A stretch of 43,791 nt of DNA from a virus (taxonomy: Duplodnaviria > Heunggongvirae > Uroviricota > Caudoviricetes), in IMG/VR virus record IMGVR_UViG_648861009_000009; one strand, given 5' to 3'. Below, piece by piece: positions 1,009-43,791 of this stretch (the stretch's first letter is position 1; every line of letters begins with the position of its first letter). A program made the position numbers and the translations under genes. The notes beneath the pieces are model-generated. The model was not told the DNA's origin and did no database searches. It saw nothing but the letters and a program-made list of their open reading frames with translations.

Positions 1009-1083
1009 GTCCTCTTAGTTAAATGGATATAACGAGCCCCTCCTAAGGGCTAATTGCAGGTTCGATTCCTGCAGGGGACACCA
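1009..1083 (+). tRNA. argW: tRNA-Arg (anticodon CCU)
   Basis: 75-nt sequence GTCCTCTTAGTTAAATGGATATAACGAGCCCCTCCTAAGGGCTAATTGCAGGTTCGATTCCTGCAGGGGACACCA; cloverleaf, CCT anticodon, 3' CCA. Confidence 0.9.
1069..1083. repeat. attL core (15-bp direct repeat, 3' end of argW)
   Basis: ctgcaggggacacca repeated exactly at 42088-42102. Confidence 0.75.
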
Positions 1084-1244
1084 TTTATCAGTTCGCTCCC
1101 ATCCGTACCAGTCCGCAAAATCCCCTGAATATCAAGCCTTCCGTAGATTCACAGTTCGTCATGGTTCGCGTCAGATCGTTGACAGCCGCACTCCATGACG
1201 GGTAAAAAGTGGATAAAATAATTTTACCCACCGGATTTTTACCC

Positions 1245-2402
1245 ATGCTCACCGTTAAGCAGATTGAAGCAGCAAAGCCGAAAGAAAAACCATACCGCCT
1301 TCTCGATGGTAATGGCCTGTACCTTTATGTCCCTGTGTCAGGGAAAAAGGTATGGCAGCTTCGCTACAAGATTGACGGTAAGGAGAAAATCCTGACCGTC
1401 GGGAAATATCCGCTTATGAGTTTGCAGGAGGCAAGGGATAAAGCATGGACCGCGAGGAAAGACATCTCGGTTGGCATCGATCCGGTAAAAGCGAAAAAGG
1501 CTTCGTCTAACAACAATTCCTTTAGCGCCATTTACAAGGAATGGTACGAGCACAAGAAGCAAGTATGGTCAGTAGGGTATGCGACTGAACTTGCAAAAAT
1601 GTTTGATGACGACATTTTACCTATCATCGGCGGCCTTGAAATTCAGGATATTGAGCCGATAAAACTGCTGGAAGTAATCCGCAGATTTGAAGATCGCGGT
1701 GCAATGGAGCGAGCCAACAAAGCCCGCAGAAGATGCGGAGAGGTTTTCCGTTACGCTATTGTCACTGGTAGGGCTAAATATAACCCGGCACCTGACCTTG
1801 CTGACGCCATGAAGGGATACCGCAAGAAGAACTTCCCGTTTCTCCCAGCAGACCAGATCCCTGCATTCAACAAAGCACTGGCAACATTTTCAGGAAGCAT
1901 CATATCGCTCATTGCGACCAAAGTTTTACGCTACACAGCCCTAAGAACGAAAGAGCTTCGCTCCATGCAATGGAAGAACGTCGATTTTGAAAACAGGATT
2001 ATCACTATCGACGCCAGTGTGATGAAGGGCCGCAAAATTCATGTGGTCCCGATGTCAGACCAGGTGGTTGAACTTCTCACTACGCTAAGCTCAATCACCA
2101 AACCAGTCTCAGAGTTTGTTTTTGCCGGGCGCAACGATAAGAAGAAGCCAATCTGCGAGAACGCGGTTCTACTTGTGATCAAACAAATCGGCTATGAGGG
2201 TCTGGAAAGCGGTCACGGATTCAGGCATGAATTCAGCACGATTATGAACGAGCACGAATGGCCTGCTGACGCTATTGAAGTGCAACTTGCACATGCCAAC
2301 GGCGGATCTGTGCGTGGAATTTACAACCATGCTCAGTATCTCGATAAGCGCAGAGAAATGATGCAGTGGTGGGCGGACTGGATTGATGAAAAGGTGGGCT
2401 AA
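1245..2402 (+). CDS. intS: Tyrosine integrase IntS-type
   Basis: ORF 1209-2402 (GTG at 1209); ATG at 1245 gives MLTVKQIEAAKPKEKPYRLLDGNGLYLYVP matching remembered K-12 IntS; adjacent to argW. Confidence 0.88.
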   Translation: MLTVKQIEAAKPKEKPYRLLDGNGLYLYVPVSGKKVWQLRYKIDGKEKILTVGKYPLMSLQEARDKAWTARKDISVGIDPVKAKKASSNNNSFSAIYKEWYEHKKQVWSVGYATELAKMFDDDILPIIGGLEIQDIEPIKLLEVIRRFEDRGAMERANKARRRCGEVFRYAIVTGRAKYNPAPDLADAMKGYRKKNFPFLPADQIPAFNKALATFSGSIISLIATKVLRYTALRTKELRSMQWKNVDFENRIITIDASVMKGRKIHVVPMSDQVVELLTTLSSITKPVSEFVFAGRNDKKKPICENAVLLVIKQIGYEGLESGHGFRHEFSTIMNEHEWPADAIEVQLAHANGGSVRGIYNHAQYLDKRREMMQWWADWIDEKVG

Positions 2403-2793: not shown

Positions 2794-4930
2794 GAAACTT
2801 CCCCATTGGTTGAAAATATGGCTCCTCCAACTCCAAGTGTATTTCGTGTTGTGCTCAACCTAAGAGGGCTGGAGTCAGAATTAGAATATCCTGTAGCAGA
2901 AATAAAAGATCCTCCACTAATAGTCAACTGCGGAACATCGGCTATATCTGAATAAGTTCTGTCAGCAACAGTATTATTTATAGCCACATGTGATCCAAAA
3001 AAACTTCTTATTGTTTGGTTTTTAACTTTACTTCCTTCAATGGTTATCCTACTACCACAGTCAGCAATAAATCCTGAATCTGCATCCAGCGTTGCATTCA
3101 TAAAAGAAGCTTCAGATCTCTCTACATCAATCCATCTAATATCTTTTGTGGGATTTGCACCAAATACATGACAAATATTAGAGTTAAACCTTACACCATC
3201 TTGGAGGTGCATTAATTTTTTTATATCTGTACCCCATAGCCTTGGAAAATTAACAGATGCTCCTGCATGGCAATCAAATCCCAACTCAGCCCCTGAGATA
3301 TCTACAGCCTTTCCTGAAATAACAGCACCAGTGTCTGCATTAACGGCTGTTCCACAATTGCGCATATCATTACCAGCAATATCAACACAACTCGCACCAT
3401 CAATACGCACACCAAGTGCACATCCATAAAAACCTTTTTCAATATTTGGTTCAAGGACTTTACCACTTGTTTCTGCATCACTTTCTTCAACGTCATGTCG
3501 TCTTGCATCAACATATGCTGTATGAATGCAGGTTAATCCACGATATGAGCAATGTATAGTTTTATGGTCGCGTATATTAACATTTNNNNNNNNNNNNNNN
3601 NNNNNNNNNNNNNNNNNNNNNNNNNNNNNNNNNNNNNNNNNNNNNNNNNNNNNNNNNNNNNNNNNNNNNAACCATCTCTTACATTCCATCCTATATAACA
3701 ATAGCTTGCACTTGACCCCTGAAAATCTGCTTTAACATTATAAATACAATTAACTGACGCAACCGTACTCTCTGTGCACCGTTCAAACTTGCTTACAGGC
3801 ATTGATGCCTTGACATTATTTACCAGTTGCAGGGAAGAGTATCTGCTATAAGAAAAATCACATACGTAATACCCTTCTGGCATATATGCAGCAACACTTT
3901 CCTCATCAGGAGCACATCCGGTATGATATGCACTAATTTTTGCACCAAAGCTACCATGAATTCCAACGTAGAACTTTCGAGCACCTGAATACGGATAGAA
4001 ATTAAGTTCAGCTTTTTGAGTTACAATAAATGCACAAACATCGCTATCATCTCTATTTTCTTCAATCTGAATAGCAAATACAGGACTTTTTGCTGCATCG
4101 CAAATGTAAAATAAATATTTGTATTCGTAATACGTCCTAACAGTTTTAGTAAACAAACTGGTATCAGAGAAAACCACTGAGTCTTCTGATATTATTTTAA
4201 TCCATGATAAGTCACATCCTGCTGAAATTTCTATTTGCTCATTGAGCACAAAACCGGAAAGAATTTTAATTATGCAAAAGTCAATGCCATTTTTCCATAG
4301 TGGACGCAGTGCAACAGCCGAGTTTAGAGCATCACTAATAGATTTAAAATTACCATATTCCCCAACTGTTATTGTGAATGCATACCTGGAATTAAATACT
4401 GCGGCACTCTCTCCAGAGTTAATAGCTGCAGATATCATGTCATAATTTGATATAAAATCATTTGGCGTGATTATTTCTGCGTTTTTATTGTGCTGTGTTC
4501 TAAGTTTTGAATTTACATGAACACTTTTAACTGCAATACGGGAGTCGTCAACAAGTATTTCATTACCCTCTGTTGCTAACTCTTGTCTTAACTGATCCGG
4601 GTCATACTTCAGCACATTCGGAAAATTGAACTGCTGTGCACCATACGCATCATAAACAGCCATAGAATGGCCTTGCTCAGTTACGAATTTGGCAATCTGT
4701 CCGTTATATACAGGGTAACCAGCAGCGTTAATGATGATTGGTTGCGATACAGGAACGTGAGAACCGTCTTCATTCTCCACATAAACCTGAATCTGGTTTT
4801 CAGGATTTACAGGGTCAGTGTCAATTTTTCCGATATAAATTTTGCCATTGGCAACCGCTTTAAAAGAACGTGCCATAGTGAAGAGTTGCGAAGGCATCGA
4901 TACGATCACATTGGCTGTAATGTCTGTCAT
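2790..4930 (-). CDS. Tailspike protein, P22 gp9-type N-terminal head-binding domain plus distinct receptor-binding domain; interrupted by assembly gap
   Basis: N-terminus [43 protein letters not shown] matches P22 tailspike; ORF spans N-run 3586-3669. Confidence 0.85.
3586..3669. other. Assembly gap (84 N) inside tailspike gene
   Basis: Run of N. Confidence 0.95.
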
Positions 4931-27135: not shown

Positions 27136-27308
27136 TTCCTCGCGCGATGTCTTAGCCACCGGATATCCCACAGGTGAGCCGTGTAGTTGAAGGTTTTTAC
27201 GTCAGATTCTTTTGGGATTGGCTTGCGTTTATTTCTGGAGAGTTTCGTTGGAAGGTATTTGCAGTTTTCGCAGATGATGTCGGTGATACTTCGTCGCTGT
27301 CGCCTCAT
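27132..27308 (-). CDS. ninE: NinE
   Basis: Internal start gives [22 protein letters not shown]...[14 protein letters not shown] matching lambda NinE. Confidence 0.75.
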
Positions 27309-28309
27309 GCCGCCCTCCTGACGCCCTGCCCGATCGCCATCAATGCCGCTTTGGATACGGTAGTAAACATCCGTCGAGGACTGATGAACGGTCGCCAAAT
27401 CAGCAGCATGGAGCCTTTGCTGTTTCCCTTCTTCTCTAGCCCCGTCGATGGTTCGATAAAATTAATCCGTCCATCAGTGATAATACGAACTTCGTCAACA
27501 CTCTCCAGAGCCTTGCTGAACCATCCGACTGACATATCCTCTGGCACAAGCATAACTACCGTCTGTCGCTGTTGTATGCACTGCTCAGCGGCTTTTTCCA
27601 CCCACGGCCTGATATTGCTGTACGGTGGGTTATTCCAGATTGCACCGTGGCTTACCCACTCAGAATTGAGCGCGTCGTCGGCCTCAGTTAGCCAGTGAGC
27701 GCACAGAGCATTTTTGNNNNNNNNNNNNNNNNNNNNNNNNNNNNNNNNNNNNNNNNNNNNNNNNNNNNNNNNNNNNNNNNNNNNNNNNNNNNNNNNNNNN
27801 NNNNNNNNNNNNNNNNNNNNNNNNNNNNNNNNNNNNNNNNNNNNNNNNNNNNNNNNNNNNNNNNNNNNNNNNNNNNNNNNNNNNNNNNNNNNNNNNNNNN
27901 NNNNNNNNNNNNNNNNNNNNNNNNNNNNNNNNNNNNNNNNNNNNNNNNNNNNNNNNNNNNNNNNNNNNNNNNNNNNNNNNNNNNAGCCTTGCTGAACCAT
28001 CCGACTGACATTATCCTCTGGCACAAGCATAACTACCGTCTGTCGCTGTTGTATGCACTGCTCAGCGGCTTTTTCCACCCACGGCCTGATATTGCTGTAC
28101 GGTGGGTTATTCCAGATTGCACCGTGGCTTACCCACTCAGAATTGAGCGCGTCGTCGGCCTCAGTTAGCCAGTGAGCGCACAGAGCATTTTTGTCGCTCG
28201 CTGCCGAATCCAGCCAGAATCCAAACTCAATATCCAGTGCATCAAAAAGCCAAAGCGGCGTTTGCCAGCAGTCCTTGTCGTGTGCTGGCGTATTTGATTT
28301 GATAGTCAT
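27305..28309 (-). CDS. Phage N6-adenine DNA methyltransferase (Dam-like), reading frame spans assembly gap and duplicated flank
   Basis: [19 protein letters not shown]...AIWNNPPYS (NPPY motif IV); gap 27717-27984; true gene probably ~180 codons. Confidence 0.7.
27717..27984. other. Assembly gap (268 N) flanked by ~200-bp duplicated sequence
   Basis: 27510-27716 repeats at 27985-28190 with a 1-nt indel. Confidence 0.9.
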
Positions 28310-28752
28310 GCAGCCTTCCCTTTTCGTTGTGACCATTCATACTCTCGCCGGGAGTCATCACTCCACCGCACGTTGCGCTCTGAGCCGAACCAGAACATGA
28401 TTTCGATAAGCTCAGTCATGCTGGCCTTTCGCATTTTGCTGGTACGCACGCCAAGCATAACAACGCCACCGTCGATACCAGGCGCACTTCGTTGCTCCAG
28501 TTTTTTGGTCTTAAGCCACAGGGCAGTGAACAGATCTTTCCAGTCCTCCGGCGCAAGTCTCTCTCCATGCCAGAGCACCTGACGCGATACGTCCTGCAAT
28601 AACGCCCACATAAGGCGGTTTTGAGGATTGCTCCGCTTTGGTTCTTTAATGTGGACTTCGTGAGGTGACTTGTCGTCGATCGGAAGTGAGAGTATTGCGT
28701 CTATGGCGTTGTTTCTGATTGCTTCGTTGCGAAGCATGTATATTTGCTTCAT
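28306..28752 (-). CDS. ninB: NinB (recombination mediator)
   Basis: SNPQNRLMWALLQDVSRQVLWHGERLAPEDWKDLFTA and C-terminal WS...EW match lambda NinB; start at MKQIYML. Confidence 0.8.
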   Translation of the reverse strand: MKQIYMLRNEAIRNNAIDAILSLPIDDKSPHEVHIKEPKRSNPQNRLMWALLQDVSRQVLWHGERLAPEDWKDLFTALWLKTKKLEQRSAPGIDGGVVMLGVRTSKMRKASMTELIEIMFWFGSERNVRWSDDSRREYEWSQRKGKAA

Positions 28753-36031: not shown

Positions 36032-36886
36032 ATGAGTGAAGTAACAGATTTAGTTGTTATTGAAAAAGCAAATGCAATGACTGTATTTCAGTCTGCCGAC
36101 CAGATTGAAGAAATCCTTCAAAAGGTTGAACGTGAAGTTATGTCCTTTGTGCCTGATATCACAACGGCAAAGGGCAGAAAGGAGATCGCTTCTCTGGCGT
36201 ATAAAGTTGCGCAGACGAAAACATATCTCGATGGTCTTGGCAAAGACCTTGTTGCTGAACTGAAGGAAATTCCAAAGCTAATTGATGCCAACCGCAAGAC
36301 AGTGCGCGATCGCCTTGATGAACTGAAAGCCAAGGCGCGCCAGCCTCTTACTGATTATGAGGAAGAACAGGCGCGGATTAAAGCCGAAGAAGAAGCTAAG
36401 GCAGCAGCTGAAGCTCTCGCAAAGCAAATTGAGTCTGACCATGAAATAGCGATTTTGATGGATCGCGAATTTGACCGCCAAAGAGAAGAGGCAAGACTCA
36501 AAGCGGAGCAGGAAAAGCGAGAGCATGAAGAACGATTAAAAAGAGAAGCTGAAGAGAAAGCCAGAGCAGAAGCCGAAGCAAAGGCAAAAGCCGAAATTGA
36601 AGCAGCAGCAAGGCGAGAAGCAGAAGCTAAGGCCGCAGCGGAACGTGCAGAGCGTGAACGCATTGAAGCCGAGCAACGAGCACAGCGCGAAGCAAAAGAG
36701 GCAGCAGAACGAGCTGAAAGAGAAAAGCAGGCAGCAATTGAAGCAGAACGCAGAAAAGCACAGGAGGAGGCTGAACGAATCCGTCGCGAGGCTGAAGCAA
36801 AAGAGCAAGCCAGAATAGCAGAAGAAAAAGAATCAAGGACGAAGAAGAGCGCAGAGCAAAGGATAAAGCTCACCGGAAAGAAGTAA
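36032..36886 (+). CDS. Coiled-coil protein with long E/A/K/R-rich low-complexity region; possible frameshifted C-terminus to 36999
   Basis: 284-aa ORF, RBS AAGGAGGA; stop-free downstream frame encodes ...NNKILADLIKVGASEDVAKNIITAIVKGEVFATKITY. Confidence 0.55.
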   Translation: MSEVTDLVVIEKANAMTVFQSADQIEEILQKVEREVMSFVPDITTAKGRKEIASLAYKVAQTKTYLDGLGKDLVAELKEIPKLIDANRKTVRDRLDELKAKARQPLTDYEEEQARIKAEEEAKAAAEALAKQIESDHEIAILMDREFDRQREEARLKAEQEKREHEERLKREAEEKARAEAEAKAKAEIEAAARREAEAKAAAERAERERIEAEQRAQREAKEAAERAEREKQAAIEAERRKAQEEAERIRREAEAKEQARIAEEKESRTKKSAEQRIKLTGKK

Positions 36887-41680: not shown

Positions 41681-41813
41681 CCATAAAATAACACGCCTCA
41701 CACTCGATGAGGCATGTTCATTGCTCAAGATATCCAGACCTATCATCGCCGCATCAATGCGTTTTTTTATTGCCTGATTTGCAGGTTCGATTCCCTATTC
41801 GGAGATAGCACTC

Positions 41814-42014
41814 ATGCAACACGAACTACAGCCTGATTCACTGGTTGATTTGAAATTCATCATGGCCGATACTGGCTTCGGTAAAACCTTCATCTATGAC
41901 CGGATTAAGTCCGGCGACCTGCCAAAAGCCAAAGTTATCCACGGGCGAGCAAGATGGTTATATCGTGACCATTGTGAATTCAAAAATAAGCTCTTAAGCC
42001 GCGCCAATGGGTAA
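41814..42014 (+). CDS. torI: Excisionase TorI/AlpA family
   Basis: 66 aa MQHELQPDSLVDLKFIMADTGFGKTFIYDRIKSGDLPKAKVIHGRARWLY; winged-helix excisionase pattern matching remembered KplE1 TorI; adjacent to attR. Confidence 0.8.
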   Translation: MQHELQPDSLVDLKFIMADTGFGKTFIYDRIKSGDLPKAKVIHGRARWLYRDHCEFKNKLLSRANG

Positions 42015-42087
42015 AATAGCGGGTAAAATATTTCTCACATCTAAAAAACATCATTCTAATCAATCCCCTGTCACGTCAAGTAGATGT

Positions 42088-42102
42088 CTGCAGGGGACAC
42101 CA
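42088..42102. repeat. attR core (15-bp direct repeat of argW 3' end)
   Basis: ctgcaggggacacca identical to 1069-1083. Confidence 0.75.
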
Positions 42103-42543
42103 GATACCCTTCTAACAATATCTACCTTCACCCCGTAAAAGATGGGTTTGGCAGCACACTTGCCCTATATCTACTCATTTTTACTGCAACAGGTTGAAAT
42201 CTCAGCACTGTCAGAAAGCGCTGATGACTAAACAGCCCTGGGCCGGGCGATGTAACCATCATACAGAATCCTGATAGCGAAATATGGCGTGACTCGATAC
42301 TTCACTCTGCAATGCGTTCCTTGATGAATTCGCAGGCCCGTGATACACGGGACAAGTCGCTGAATGACGACAATGTCCTGGAAATCAGCGAACCGCGTAT
42401 CCGGAGTACATTTGAGCGACTGTACCAGAACATGAATGAGGCGTTTGGATTAGGTGATTATTAGTTGGGCTAAGCATTTTTGTATTATTATTTTCCGGTT
42501 GAGGGATATGGAGATATCGACAACAACCGGAAAAAGTTTACGT

Positions 42544-43791
42544 CTATATTGCTGAAGGTACAGGCGTTTCCATAACTATTTGCTCGCGTTTTTTACTCAG
42601 GAAGAAAATGCCAAATAGCAACATCAGGCAGACAATACCCGAAATTGCGAAGAAAACTGTCTGGTAGCCTGCGTGGTCAAAGAGTATCCCAGTCGGCGTT
42701 GAAAGCAGCACAATCCCAAGCGAACTGGCAATTTGAAAACCAATCAGAAAGATCGTCGACGACAGGCGCTTATCAAAGTTTGCCACGCTGTATTTGAAGA
42801 CGGATATGACACAAAGTGGAACCTCAATGGCATGTAACAGCTTCACTAATGAAATAATCCAGGGGTTAACGAACAACGCGCAGGAAAGGATACGCAACGC
42901 CATAATCACAACACCGATAAGTAATGCATTTTTTGGCCCTACCCGATTCACAAAGAAAGGAATAATCGCCATGCACAGCGCTTCGAGTACCACCTGGAAT
43001 GAGTTGAGATAACCATACAGGCGCGTTCCTACATCGTGTGATTCGAATAAACCTGCATAAAAGACAGGAAAGAGTTGTTGATCAAAAATGTTATAGAAAG
43101 ACCACGTCCCCACAATAAATATGACAAAAACCCAGAAGTTTCGATCCTTGAAAACTGCGATAAAATCCTCTTTTTTTACCCCTCCCGCATCCGCCGCTAC
43201 ACACTGGTGACCCTTATCTTTAAAACGCATGTTGATCATCATAAATACAGCGCCAAATAGCGAGACCAGCCAGAAGTTGATATGGGGACTGATACTAAAA
43301 AATATGCCGGCAAAGAACGCGCCAATAGCATAGCCAAAAGATCCCCAGGCGCGCGCTGTTCCATATTCGAAATGAAAATTTCGCGCCATTTTTTCAGTGA
43401 AGCTGTCAAGCAAACCACATCCCGCCAGATACCCCAGGCCAAAAAAGAGCGCCCCCAGAATTAGACCTACAGAAAAATTGCTTTGCAGTAACGGTTCATA
43501 AACGTAAATCATAAACGGTCCGGTCAAGACCAGAATGAAACTCATACACCAGATGAGCGGTTTCTTCAGACCGAGTTTATCCTGAACGATGCCGTAGAAC
43601 ATCATAAATAGAATGCTGGTAAACTGGTTGACCGAATAAAGTGTACCTAATTCCGTCCCTGTTAATCCTAGATGTCCTTTCAGCCAAATAGCGTATAACG
43701 ACCACCACAGCGACCAGGAAATAAAAAAGAGAAATGAGTAACTGGATGCAAAACGATAGTACGCATTTCTGAATGGAATATTCAGTGCCAT
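42544..43791 (-). CDS. cscB: Sucrose:H+ symporter CscB (LacY-family MFS)
   Basis: 415 aa, 12-TM, matches remembered E. coli CscB; csc locus is known to lie near argW in sucrose-positive strains. Confidence 0.85.
   Translation of the reverse strand: MALNIPFRNAYYRFASSYSFLFFISWSLWWSLYAIWLKGHLGLTGTELGTLYSVNQFTSILFMMFYGIVQDKLGLKKPLIWCMSFILVLTGPFMIYVYEPLLQSNFSVGLILGALFFGLGYLAGCGLLDSFTEKMARNFHFEYGTARAWGSFGYAIGAFFAGIFFSISPHINFWLVSLFGAVFMMINMRFKDKGHQCVAADAGGVKKEDFIAVFKDRNFWVFVIFIVGTWSFYNIFDQQLFPVFYAGLFESHDVGTRLYGYLNSFQVVLEALCMAIIPFFVNRVGPKNALLIGVVIMALRILSCALFVNPWIISLVKLLHAIEVPLCVISVFKYSVANFDKRLSSTIFLIGFQIASSLGIVLLSTPTGILFDHAGYQTVFFAISGIVCLMLLFGIFFLSKKREQIVMETPVPSAI

What the first reader, a model, noticed from the sequence alone, without database searches (positions are those of the whole stretch)
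41779..41794. 16-bp argW T-arm-like segment immediately upstream of torI
ttgcaggttcgattcc, identical to argW positions 46-61, lies 20 bp upstream of the torI start, about 300 bp inside the prophage from the attR core. It diverges from the tRNA after the T-loop, so it is not a second att core. It could be a relic of an ancestral attP that carried a longer tRNA 3' segment, or a recombination-protein binding context.
Basis: seen in the sequence. Interest (0 to 1): 0.35.

Follow-up and report, generated by a model that had tools for sequence, protein, structure and literature searches.

The report
Conserved tRNA T-arm copy before torI
Just upstream of the excision-factor gene torI, this argW prophage carries a short exact copy of part of the tRNA gene it integrates into; the copy is kept almost unchanged in related phages of many enterobacterial genera, so it is probably a control site, though its function has not been tested.

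Summary
TTGCAGGTTCGATTCC at 41779-41794 equals argW positions 46-61, lies 19 nt before the torI ATG and 293 bp before the attR core, and has no other copy in the window.

It is neither chance nor a decaying relic. Of 55 distinct torI-upstream contexts, 32 carry GGTTCGATT(C/T)C and 5 a near-variant. These come from Escherichia, Enterobacter, Citrobacter, Serratia, Pantoea and Edwardsiella, and from Erwinia phages. The conserved block is 13 nt, CAGGTTCGATT(C/T)C (tRNA 49-61; window 41782-41794). Pairwise identity is 0.91 in the block, 0.34 in its 5' flank and 0.60 at torI third codon positions. TTG is specific to the E. coli lineage, where TTGC is the second half of a lambda-PI-like cII box.

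It is not a second att core. It lies outside the 135-bp attR that works in vitro, and attP keeps its own degenerate T-loop beside the core.

No tRNA, Rfam family, sigma-70 promoter or covarying RNA structure is present.

Best guess (about 0.4): an operator for the module's own recombination proteins, controlling torI expression. It contains the TorI box pentamer GTTCG. It also equals the tRNA segment immediately left of the att identity block, a possible IntS B half-site. Binding is untested.

The parts
41779..41794 (+). The reported 16-mer TTGCAGGTTCGATTCC, identical to argW positions 46-61
   Evidence: D16
41782..41794 (+). Conserved core CAGGTTCGATT(C/T)C, equal to argW T-arm positions 49-61; it contains the TorI-box pentamer GTTCG at 41785-41789
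   Evidence: 32 of 55 contexts exact and 5 near-variants; pairwise identity 0.91 against 0.34 in the 5' flank
41770..41782 (+). TTGCctgatTTGC, a lambda-PI-like cII box with an N5 spacer. Its second TTGC supplies the first 4 nt of the 16-mer. HK620 annotates it as a cII site of a 'phage integration' promoter (about 41769-41807 in window coordinates)
   Evidence: HK022 has TTGCgtgtaaTTGC at the homologous place
41802..41805 (+). GGAG Shine-Dalgarno of torI, 4-7 nt after the conserved block in nearly all lineages
41814..42014 (+). torI (66 aa recombination directionality factor; 100% identical to HK620 HkaC and Sf6 gp18)
41695..41769 (+). Terminator-like hairpin (41695-41713) and a second short hairpin with a T-run (about 41750-41769). 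Different upstream phage modules are joined to the torI module at this T-run
42009..42029 (+). Two direct GGGTAAAAT repeats (42009-42017, 42021-42029), taken as the IntS arm-type P sites
   Evidence: sequence; conserved in all relatives; TAAA motif of arm sites per PMC2951348
42058..42070 (+). AATCAATCCCCTG, an IHF-consensus-like site in the P arm
   Evidence: conserved; match to the consensus WATCAANNNNTTR is from my own knowledge
42088..42102 (+). attR core CTGCAGGGGACACCA
   Evidence: (D10)
1009..1083 (+). argW tRNA-Arg(CCT); T-arm original of the 16-mer at 1054-1069; attL core at 1069-1083
1089..1180 (+). Five TorI boxes of attL, with pentamers at 1091-1095, 1111-1115, 1154-1158, 1164-1168 and 1174-1178
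   Evidence: sequence; K-12 coordinates and GTTCG/GTCCG/GATCG motifs from PMC2951348; register uncertain by 1 nt
1245..2402 (+). intS integrase gene
   Evidence: sequence; same length as HK620 int

Best explanation
The 16-mer is the E. coli-lineage form of a conserved 13-bp element, CAGGTTCGATT(C/T)C, in the leader of the RDF gene torI. The element is an exact copy of the argW T-arm (tRNA 49-61). That is the part of the tRNA gene immediately to the left of the att identity block, which is present in attB and attL but replaced in attP and attR.

It belongs to the torI-attP-intS recombination module and travels with it between unrelated phage backbones. It is kept by purifying selection.

The mechanism I consider most likely is that it is a DNA operator for the module's own recombination proteins. 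TorI is one candidate, because its boxes have the core GTTCG. IntS is the other, through its core-binding domains recognising a B-type half-site, possibly bridged from the P1/P2 arm sites at the 3' end of torI. Either would give feedback control of torI expression, by blocking read-through or pI-type transcription, or translation initiation about 19 nt downstream.

Shown: identity, position, conservation, absence of a core, and absence of a known RNA family or promoter. Inferred: protein binding and its regulatory effect.
For: - Exact match, unique in the window.
- The element is present 16-19 nt before the ATG (25 nt in Serratia) in 32 of 55 distinct contexts, plus 5 near-variants. Hosts include Escherichia, Enterobacter, Citrobacter, Serratia, Pantoea and Edwardsiella, and Erwinia phages.
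- In 14 lineages, pairwise identity is 0.91 for the 13-mer, 0.34 for the 5' flank and 0.60 for torI third codon positions. The invariant run GTTCGATT (8 nt) exceeds the longest invariant run in the torI CDS (7 nt).
- Tandem second copies occur in the Erwinia-type phages L003, L129, L130 and L133, and degenerate second copies in L126 and L008.
- TorI boxes have cores GTTCG/GATCG/GTCCG, and TorI and IntS are already known to repress PintS by binding att sites (PMC2951348).
- One lineage (L127/L128) has CAGTTCGA, which matches the canonical TorI box up to its last conserved base.
- The att identity block starts at tRNA position 61/62 in all lineages, exactly where the 13-mer ends.
- The host T-arm is the same in an Edwardsiella-type attL whose acceptor stem differs (L243).
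- The module-intrinsic nature of the element fits a module-encoded binder: at least three upstream modules are joined just 5' of it in E. coli phages, and only the element, the SD and torI are shared between genera.
- PtorI is described as non-characterised in PMC2951348.
Against: - No binding data exist.
- The base after GTTCG is A in every lineage, whereas it is C or T in all 36 TorI boxes from 7 distinct P' arms.
- The element is single in most lineages. Where duplicated, the spacing is 13 or 16 bp, not the 10-bp phasing of TorI boxes I3-I5.
- Core-type integrase binding without an adjacent overlap region or arm sites is usually weak (general knowledge of lambda Int).
- The element is dispensable for excision in vitro: the 135-bp attR substrate starts at 41991 (PMC3509656).
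- It is absent from 18 of 55 contexts, including functional phages (Klebsiella Chronis, Erwinia EhrS_49), so it is not essential to the module.
- Co-variation with a different tRNA could not be tested, because all relatives found use argW-type cores.
Confidence: 0.4

Rival explanations
1. RNA-level leader element. In read-through transcripts the motif acts in the torI mRNA, for example as an anti-SD partner (UUCC or UUCG pairing with CGGAG), as an RNase processing site, or as a T-loop mimic (it fits GUUCNANNC) that sets torI translation.
For: The distance to the SD and ATG is fixed. The element lies directly after a terminator, and no sigma-70 promoter is predicted between the two, so torI is probably expressed by read-through. 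That agrees with Rho-controlled torI expression (Menouni 2013, from memory; paper not held). The UUCG/CGGA or UUCC/GGAG pairing is possible in about 80% of cells, and C-to-U changes keep G-U pairs. The E. coli MFE and centroid structures contain the UUCGA/UCGGA helix.
Against: The alifold consensus is only -0.7 kcal/mol, with 4 pairs and no compensatory change. Slid controls pair almost as well, 66% at +1. Fold z-scores are 0.07 and -1.27. A 4-bp helix does not explain 13 conserved nucleotides. The T-stem 3' half is missing, so no T-arm hairpin forms in most lineages. There is no Rfam hit.
Confidence: 0.2
2. It is simply the spacer of a cII/C1-activated PI-type promoter, as annotated in HK620 and Sf6. 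The resemblance to the tRNA would be incidental.
For: HK620 annotates a promoter and cII site here, and Sf6 annotates pI. HK022 and lambda have TTGC-N6-TTGC at the homologous position just before xis. The 13 nt after the second TTGC are almost exactly the conserved block, followed by TATTCG at the expected -10 position (read from the sequence).
Against: The box spacer is N5, not N6. The TTGC boxes and the putative -10 are not conserved in the Edwardsiella, Pantoea, Serratia and Erwinia-phage lineages, which keep the 13-mer. Spacer sequences of cII-dependent promoters are not normally conserved. The consensus scan finds no + strand promoter. The chance that a conserved 13-mer equals the T-arm of the very tRNA targeted is about 1e-6.
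Confidence: 0.12
3. Non-functional relic of tRNA-derived DNA: an ancestral longer attP identity block, a decayed second core, or a captured piece of attL.
For: The 13-mer abuts, in tRNA coordinates, the start of the att identity block. Serratia and Pantoea lineages extend the identity 3'-ward (CAGGTTCGATTCCTG, 15 nt) while E. coli extends it 5'-ward (TTG), as if sampling a longer ancestor. A tRNA origin of the sequence is likely whatever its present role.
Against: Flanks are randomised while the block is near-invariant. The tail region is no more tRNA-like than control leaders. attP has its own contiguous T-loop remnant. No simple recombination scenario puts a T-arm 5' half upstream of torI without a core.
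Confidence: 0.1
4. Chance match.
For: Exact 15-mers recur by chance in this window (D18 and D19).
Against: Shuffles expect 0.02. The location and strand are specific. The element is conserved in many genera.
Confidence: 0.02

Closest known systems
KplE1 (CPS-53) / HK620 / Sf6 argW recombination module: intS, torI, attL and attR (Panis, Ansaldi et al.; PMC2951348, PMC3509656)
   Same: The window carries this module. TorI is 100% identical. It has the same 15-bp core, the same five GTTCG-type TorI boxes and GGGTAAAA arm sites, and the same torI-attP-intS order.
   Different: The described binding sites lie in attL and in a 135-bp attR. The T-arm copy 19 nt upstream of torI is outside both, and it is not mentioned in the two held papers or in the five full-text searches I ran. 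PtorI is called non-characterised. The 2007 JBC and 2010 Virology footprinting papers could not be read.
TorI (RDF) operator boxes that repress PintS (I4 and I5 on attL)
   Same: Same pentamer GTTCG. I4 is tGGTTCGc and the element is aGGTTCGa. There is precedent for TorI acting as a transcriptional repressor.
   Different: A follows the pentamer instead of C or T (0 of 36 boxes). The element is a single site, not a 10-bp-phased array. Five further conserved bases (ATTCC) are not a feature of TorI boxes.
Lambda/HK022 PI promoter with cII box TTGC-N6-TTGC overlapping the start of xis
   Same: Homologous position after the same terminator/T-run. A TTGC repeat is present in the E. coli lineage. 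HK620 and Sf6 annotate it as pI.
   Different: The spacer is N5. Relative to HK022, about 18 extra nucleotides (the T-arm copy plus CTATTC) sit between the second TTGC and GGAGA. The boxes are not conserved where the 13-mer is.
RDFs that double as transcriptional regulators with operators away from att (coliphage 186 Apl, P2 Cox, P4 Vis), from my own knowledge
   Same: A small winged-helix or HTH RDF with direct-repeat boxes both at att and at a promoter; feedback on the lysis-lysogeny and excision genes.
   Different: No binding has been shown here, and in those systems the operator does not mimic the host tRNA gene.
tRNA-gene attachment sites (phage supplies the tRNA 3' end; Williams 2002, from my own knowledge)
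   Same: The sequence is tRNA-derived and from the targeted tRNA.
   Different: It covers the 5' T-stem, the T-loop and 2 nt of the 3' stem only. It does not reach the 3' end, is not at the crossover, and is a second copy in addition to the attP-internal T-loop remnant.

Membership tests
Second att core / attachment site of the IntS module | Identity with the tRNA 3' end through the acceptor strand and CCA (the part the phage must supply, containing the crossover) | tested here: not met
   Identity stops at tRNA position 61. The leader between the motif and the ATG scores no better against TGCAGGGGACACCA than 20 control SD leaders.
Second att core / attachment site of the IntS module | Flanked by IntS arm-type sites (GGGTAAAA) and an IHF site | tested here: not met
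   The nearest GGGTAAAAT repeats are at 42009-42029 and the IHF-like site is at 42058-42070, both belonging to the real attR.
Second att core / attachment site of the IntS module | Needed for recombination | tested here: not met
   The published in vitro attR substrate (135 bp) starts with a primer that maps to 41991-42010, so it excludes the element (PMC3509656; sequence).
TorI (RDF) binding box | Pentamer G(T/A)(T/C)CG | tested here: met
   GTTCG at 41785-41789; the motif is defined in PMC2951348.
TorI (RDF) binding box | Pyrimidine directly after the pentamer | tested here: not met
   23 C and 13 T in 36 boxes from 7 P' arms, never A. The element has A in all lineages.
TorI (RDF) binding box | Arrays of boxes phased about 10 or 20 bp apart | tested here: not met
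   The element is single in E. coli and most lineages. Duplicates are 16 or 13 bp apart.
TorI (RDF) binding box | Specific binding by TorI | not testable with these tools
   Needs EMSA or footprinting.
IntS core-type (B) half-site | Same sequence as the tRNA segment adjoining the att identity block in attB | tested here: met
   The 13-mer covers tRNA 49-61, and the identity block starts at 61/62 in all lineages.
IntS core-type (B) half-site | Adjacent overlap (cleavage) region and a partner half-site | tested here: not met
   It is followed by CTATTC or variable sequence, with no TGCAGGG.
Lambda-type cII-dependent PI promoter | TTGC-N6-TTGC straddling the -35 region | tested here: not met
   The window has TTGC-N5-TTGC (41770-41782). 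HK022 has N6 at the homologous place.
Lambda-type cII-dependent PI promoter | Boxes and -10 retained wherever the element is retained | tested here: not met
   They are absent in the Edwardsiella, Serratia, Pantoea and Erwinia-phage lineages that keep the 13-mer.
tRNA gene or tRNA-like RNA | Cloverleaf, or at least a closed T-arm hairpin, detectable by tRNA or RNA-family models | tested here: not met
   ARAGORN finds only argW. Rfam gives no match at E<=1. The 3' T-stem is absent (CCCTA instead of CCTGC).

The most novel reading that the evidence does not exclude
The phage keeps, next to its excision-factor gene, an exact copy of the host-only half of its integration site (the attB B-arm, which is the argW T-arm). 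The integrase would read this copy with its core-binding domain while its N-terminal domain holds the P1/P2 arm sites at the other end of torI. The 200-bp torI gene would then be looped and silenced in the lysogen. In this reading, core-type site recognition is re-used for gene regulation by means of an 'attB mimic'.
Probability: 0.15. Interest if true: 0.65.

Novelty: new variant of a known kind. Interest (0 to 1): 0.4.

Why it matters
Excision of KplE1/HK620/Sf6-type prophages is thought to be controlled mainly through the RDF gene torI, whose promoter and control region are uncharacterised (PMC2951348). These prophages are present in about a quarter of complete E. coli genomes. A 13-bp element that is as conserved as the protein-coding core, sits 19 nt from the start codon and copies the target tRNA's T-arm is a concrete, cheaply testable candidate for that control. 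If it binds TorI or IntS, it would show a recombination module using a mimic of its own attB for feedback regulation. If it does not, it is at least a useful signature of this module's left boundary.

Tried and rejected
1. Split-tRNA idea: the 16-mer plus the core would be a contiguous tRNA 46-75 interrupted by torI. Rejected, because attP in most lineages has its own T-loop remnant next to the core.

2. Decayed second core: the SD GGAGAT would derive from the acceptor GGGGAC. Alignment scores are no better than those of control SD leaders.

3. Conserved RNA structure. RNAalifold, explicit pair counting and single-sequence folds gave nothing significant.

4. Known RNA family or tRNA. None found.

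5. Sigma-70 promoter on the + strand. None in the scan. Inspection by eye for sigma-54, sigma-E and sigma-28 elements was also negative.

6. Co-variation with another tRNA.
- Distant TorI homologues (45-60% identity, L217-L225) still use argW-type cores and lack the element.
- A scan for torI-like genes preceded by other T-loop variants found 0 of 112.
- The Edwardsiella-type host T-arm is identical.
The test was therefore not possible.

7. Reading the original footprinting papers (JBC 2007, Virology 2010) and the Rho paper (PNAS 2013). They are not held.

8. A boundary or linker sequence for module exchange. The mosaic junction in E. coli phages is at the terminator T-run 5' of the element, and other integrase modules such as HK022 lack the element.

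Full report
**Observation**

The window holds tRNA-Arg(CCT), argW, at 1009-1083. TTGCAGGTTCGATTCC occurs exactly twice: at 1054-1069 (tRNA positions 46-61) and at 41779-41794, on the same strand. No further hit appears even with up to 2 mismatches. Shuffles expect 0.02 hits.

The prophage is bounded by the direct repeat CTGCAGGGGACACCA at 1069-1083 (attL, the tRNA 3' end) and 42088-42102 (attR). torI is 41814-42014 and intS is 1245-2402.

A repeated 16-mer alone would be weak evidence, since 15-mers recur by chance in this window (D18 and D19). The location and the comparative data below make chance untenable.

**Context**

This is the well-studied KplE1 (CPS-53) / HK620 / Sf6 recombination module.
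- The torI region is found in 1407 of 5426 complete E. coli genomes, including K-12 MG1655.
- It is also found in HK620, Sf6, IME10, Kapi1 and other phages.
- The literature places five TorI boxes (cores GTTCG/GTCCG/GATCG) and the IntS arm sites (TAAA motif) on attL, overlapping PintS. It calls PtorI non-characterised (PMC2951348).
- In the window the TorI boxes are at about 1089-1117 and 1152-1180.
- Two GGGTAAAAT arm repeats lie at 42009-42029 and an IHF-like site at 42058-42070.
- The attR fragment that recombines in vitro is 135 bp. Its primer maps to 41991-42010, so the 16-mer is not part of the minimal attR (PMC3509656).

**Mosaic position**

- HK022, HK97, 434 and Stx phages share the upstream ORF and terminators only up to about 41767-41776.
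- HK620-type and Sf6-type phages share sequence from 41748 or 41759 onward.
- Among 80 IMG/VR loci with identical TorI, the last 52 nt or so before the ATG are nearly invariant, while at least three different upstream modules are joined at the terminator T-run.
- HK022 has the lambda PI cII box TTGCgtgtaaTTGC at the homologous place.
- The window has TTGCctgatTTGC (41770-41782). HK620 annotates this as a cII site of a 'phage integration' promoter, and Sf6 annotates it as pI.
- So the first four bases of the 16-mer belong to a lambda-like box.

**Comparative result**

torI homologues came from one genome per species, from viral contigs and from phage records. They gave 55 distinct upstream contexts.
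- 32 contain GGTTCGATT(C/T)C and 5 contain a variant with 1-2 mismatches. The motif ends 16-19 nt before the ATG (25 nt in Serratia).
- These contexts come from lineages whose TorI is only 74-89% identical and whose flanks cannot be aligned: Enterobacter, Citrobacter, Serratia, Pantoea, Edwardsiella and Erwinia phages.
- The conserved block is CAGGTTCGATT(C/T)C, equal to tRNA 49-61. G48 is specific to the E. coli lineage. The TT at positions 46-47 lies in T-rich context. The next base is C in 11 of 15 lineages, where the tRNA has T.
- In 14 lineages the mean pairwise identity is 0.91 for the block, 0.34 for the 13 nt 5' of it, 0.60 for torI third codon positions and 0.86 for first and second positions. 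The invariant run GTTCGATT is longer than any invariant run in the torI CDS.
- Erwinia-type phages carry two tandem copies 16 bp apart. L126 and L008 carry a degenerate second copy.
- Serratia has CAGGTTCGATTCCTG, a 15-nt identity shifted 3'-ward.
- The element is missing in 18 contexts. These include Klebsiella phage Chronis, where xis overlaps the upstream gene; Erwinia phage EhrS_49; and a Dryocola prophage in which it is precisely deleted.

The element is therefore selected but not indispensable.

**What it is not**

- *Not a second core.* Identity ends at tRNA position 61. The leader is no more similar to TGCAGGGGACACCA than control SD leaders are.
- *Not the detached half of a split tRNA fragment.* In most lineages the P side of attP reads aTTCGATGTa|TGCAGGGGACACCA. 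That is a contiguous degenerate T-loop with a conserved 3-nt difference from the tRNA.
- *Not a tRNA or a known RNA*.
- *No conserved RNA structure.* Alifold gives -0.7 kcal/mol with four pairs and no compensatory change. Explicit counting of a UUCGA/UCGGA helix gives 80% paired cells against 66% for a slid control. Fold z-scores are 0.07 and -1.27.
- *No sigma-70 promoter on the + strand*.

**What it most likely is**

It is a copy of the targeted tRNA's T-arm. It travels with the module on unrelated backbones, sits at a fixed distance from the RDF start codon, and is under purifying selection. This points to a cis-regulatory site read by something that is always present. That could be the module's own proteins or a universal host factor.

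Two module proteins are candidates.
- *TorI.* The element contains the box pentamer GTTCG and resembles box I4. One lineage has CAGTTCGA. TorI already represses PintS. Against TorI: the base after the pentamer is A everywhere, whereas it is C or T in all 36 boxes from 7 P' arms. The extra conserved ATTCC is also not a feature of TorI boxes.
- *IntS.* The 13-mer is exactly the tRNA segment abutting the att identity block, which starts at tRNA position 61/62 in every lineage. That is where a B-type core half-site would be expected if cleavage occurs at the left edge of the identity. Against IntS: there is no adjacent overlap region, and core-type binding is generally weak.

I commit to 'operator for TorI and/or IntS giving feedback on torI expression' at about 0.4. 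The rivals are:
- an RNA-level leader element, 0.2;
- the spacer of a cII-dependent pI promoter, 0.12;
- a functionless relic, 0.1;
- chance, 0.02.

The host T-arm is identical in an Edwardsiella-type attL whose acceptor stem differs. All distant homologues still target argW-type ends. No torI-like gene follows another T-loop variant. The decisive co-variation test therefore could not be made.

**Comparison with the known, and novelty**

The module, its proteins and its att sites are known. The region is annotated in HK620 and Sf6 only as a putative pI promoter. I found no mention of the T-arm copy in the held papers or in the full-text searches I ran. The 2007 and 2010 footprinting papers could not be read, so prior description cannot be excluded.

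I rate it a new variant of a known kind: a regulatory site of a recombination module, here mimicking the attB half-site. Interest is moderate (0.4). It would mildly surprise specialists, and it gives a concrete handle on the uncharacterised control of torI, but its function remains inferred.

Noticed in passing
window 3586-3669 and 27717-27984: Two runs of N (84 and 268 bases). The second is flanked by an exact duplicate of about 209 nt (27509-27716 and 27985-28193) inside a DNA-methylase-like ORF (27305-28336, - strand). It looks like a scaffolding gap artefact, not a biological repeat.
   Followed up: partly
L003 2296-2318, L008-L013 and others (attP/attR P side); window 42079-42087: In most non-E. 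coli lineages the attP sequence left of the core is aTTCGATGT(a/t/c)|TGCAGG. It keeps the T-loop TTCGAT but has a conserved 3-nt difference (GTa against the tRNA's TCC). The E. coli lineage has GTAGATGTC. A conserved difference next to the crossover may mark the IntS C half-site or the edge of the overlap.
   Followed up: partly
window 42065-42071 and 42090-42096: Inverted repeat CCCCTG(T/C) ... GCAGGGG, about 19 bp apart in the P arm. It overlaps the IHF-like site and is conserved in all lineages. Its function is unknown.
   Followed up: no
window 42103-43791: The right flank differs from K-12 directly after the core (GATACCC... against TCCTTGTG... in L004). It leads into a cscB sucrose-permease-like gene (42544-43791, - strand; identified from memory of the CscB sequence), so the host is a csc-positive, non-K-12 E. 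coli.
   Followed up: no
window 42007-42138: A 43-aa ORF overlaps the torI stop and runs across the attR core. It is the counterpart of HK620 hkaB and Sf6 gene 17. Its C-terminus changes on integration, so it is probably not a real gene.
   Followed up: no
L012 (Dryocola sp.), about 25 nt upstream of torI: The T-arm element is precisely missing (TTATTGCCTG|GAGGAAAGC ATG) compared with L009 (TTATTGCCTG[GCTTCCAGGTTCGATTCCCAAACTG]GAGATAAAACC). It looks like a deletion between short CTG repeats.
   Followed up: no
L222/L224 (TorI homologue P0094, 60% identity), P' arm: The RDF-box positions carry TTCCG/ATCCG instead of GTTCG, with the same 10-bp phasing before TTGACAGCC. L220 and L221 have different arm repeats (GTGGGCA, TTGGGGGT). 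These are examples of co-evolving RDF and Int site specificities on the same argW core.
   Followed up: no
L009 (MAG 'Actinomycetes bacterium') and L026 (MAG 'Parachlamydiaceae bacterium'): Short MAG contigs carry enterobacterial-type torI modules with the T-arm element. This is most likely mis-binned or contaminating enterobacterial phage DNA.
   Followed up: no
window 36386-36823: A degenerate GAAGC(A/T)GAAGC... repeat family (D2 and D3) lies inside a coding region, giving a Glu/Ala/Lys-rich low-complexity protein segment.
   Followed up: no
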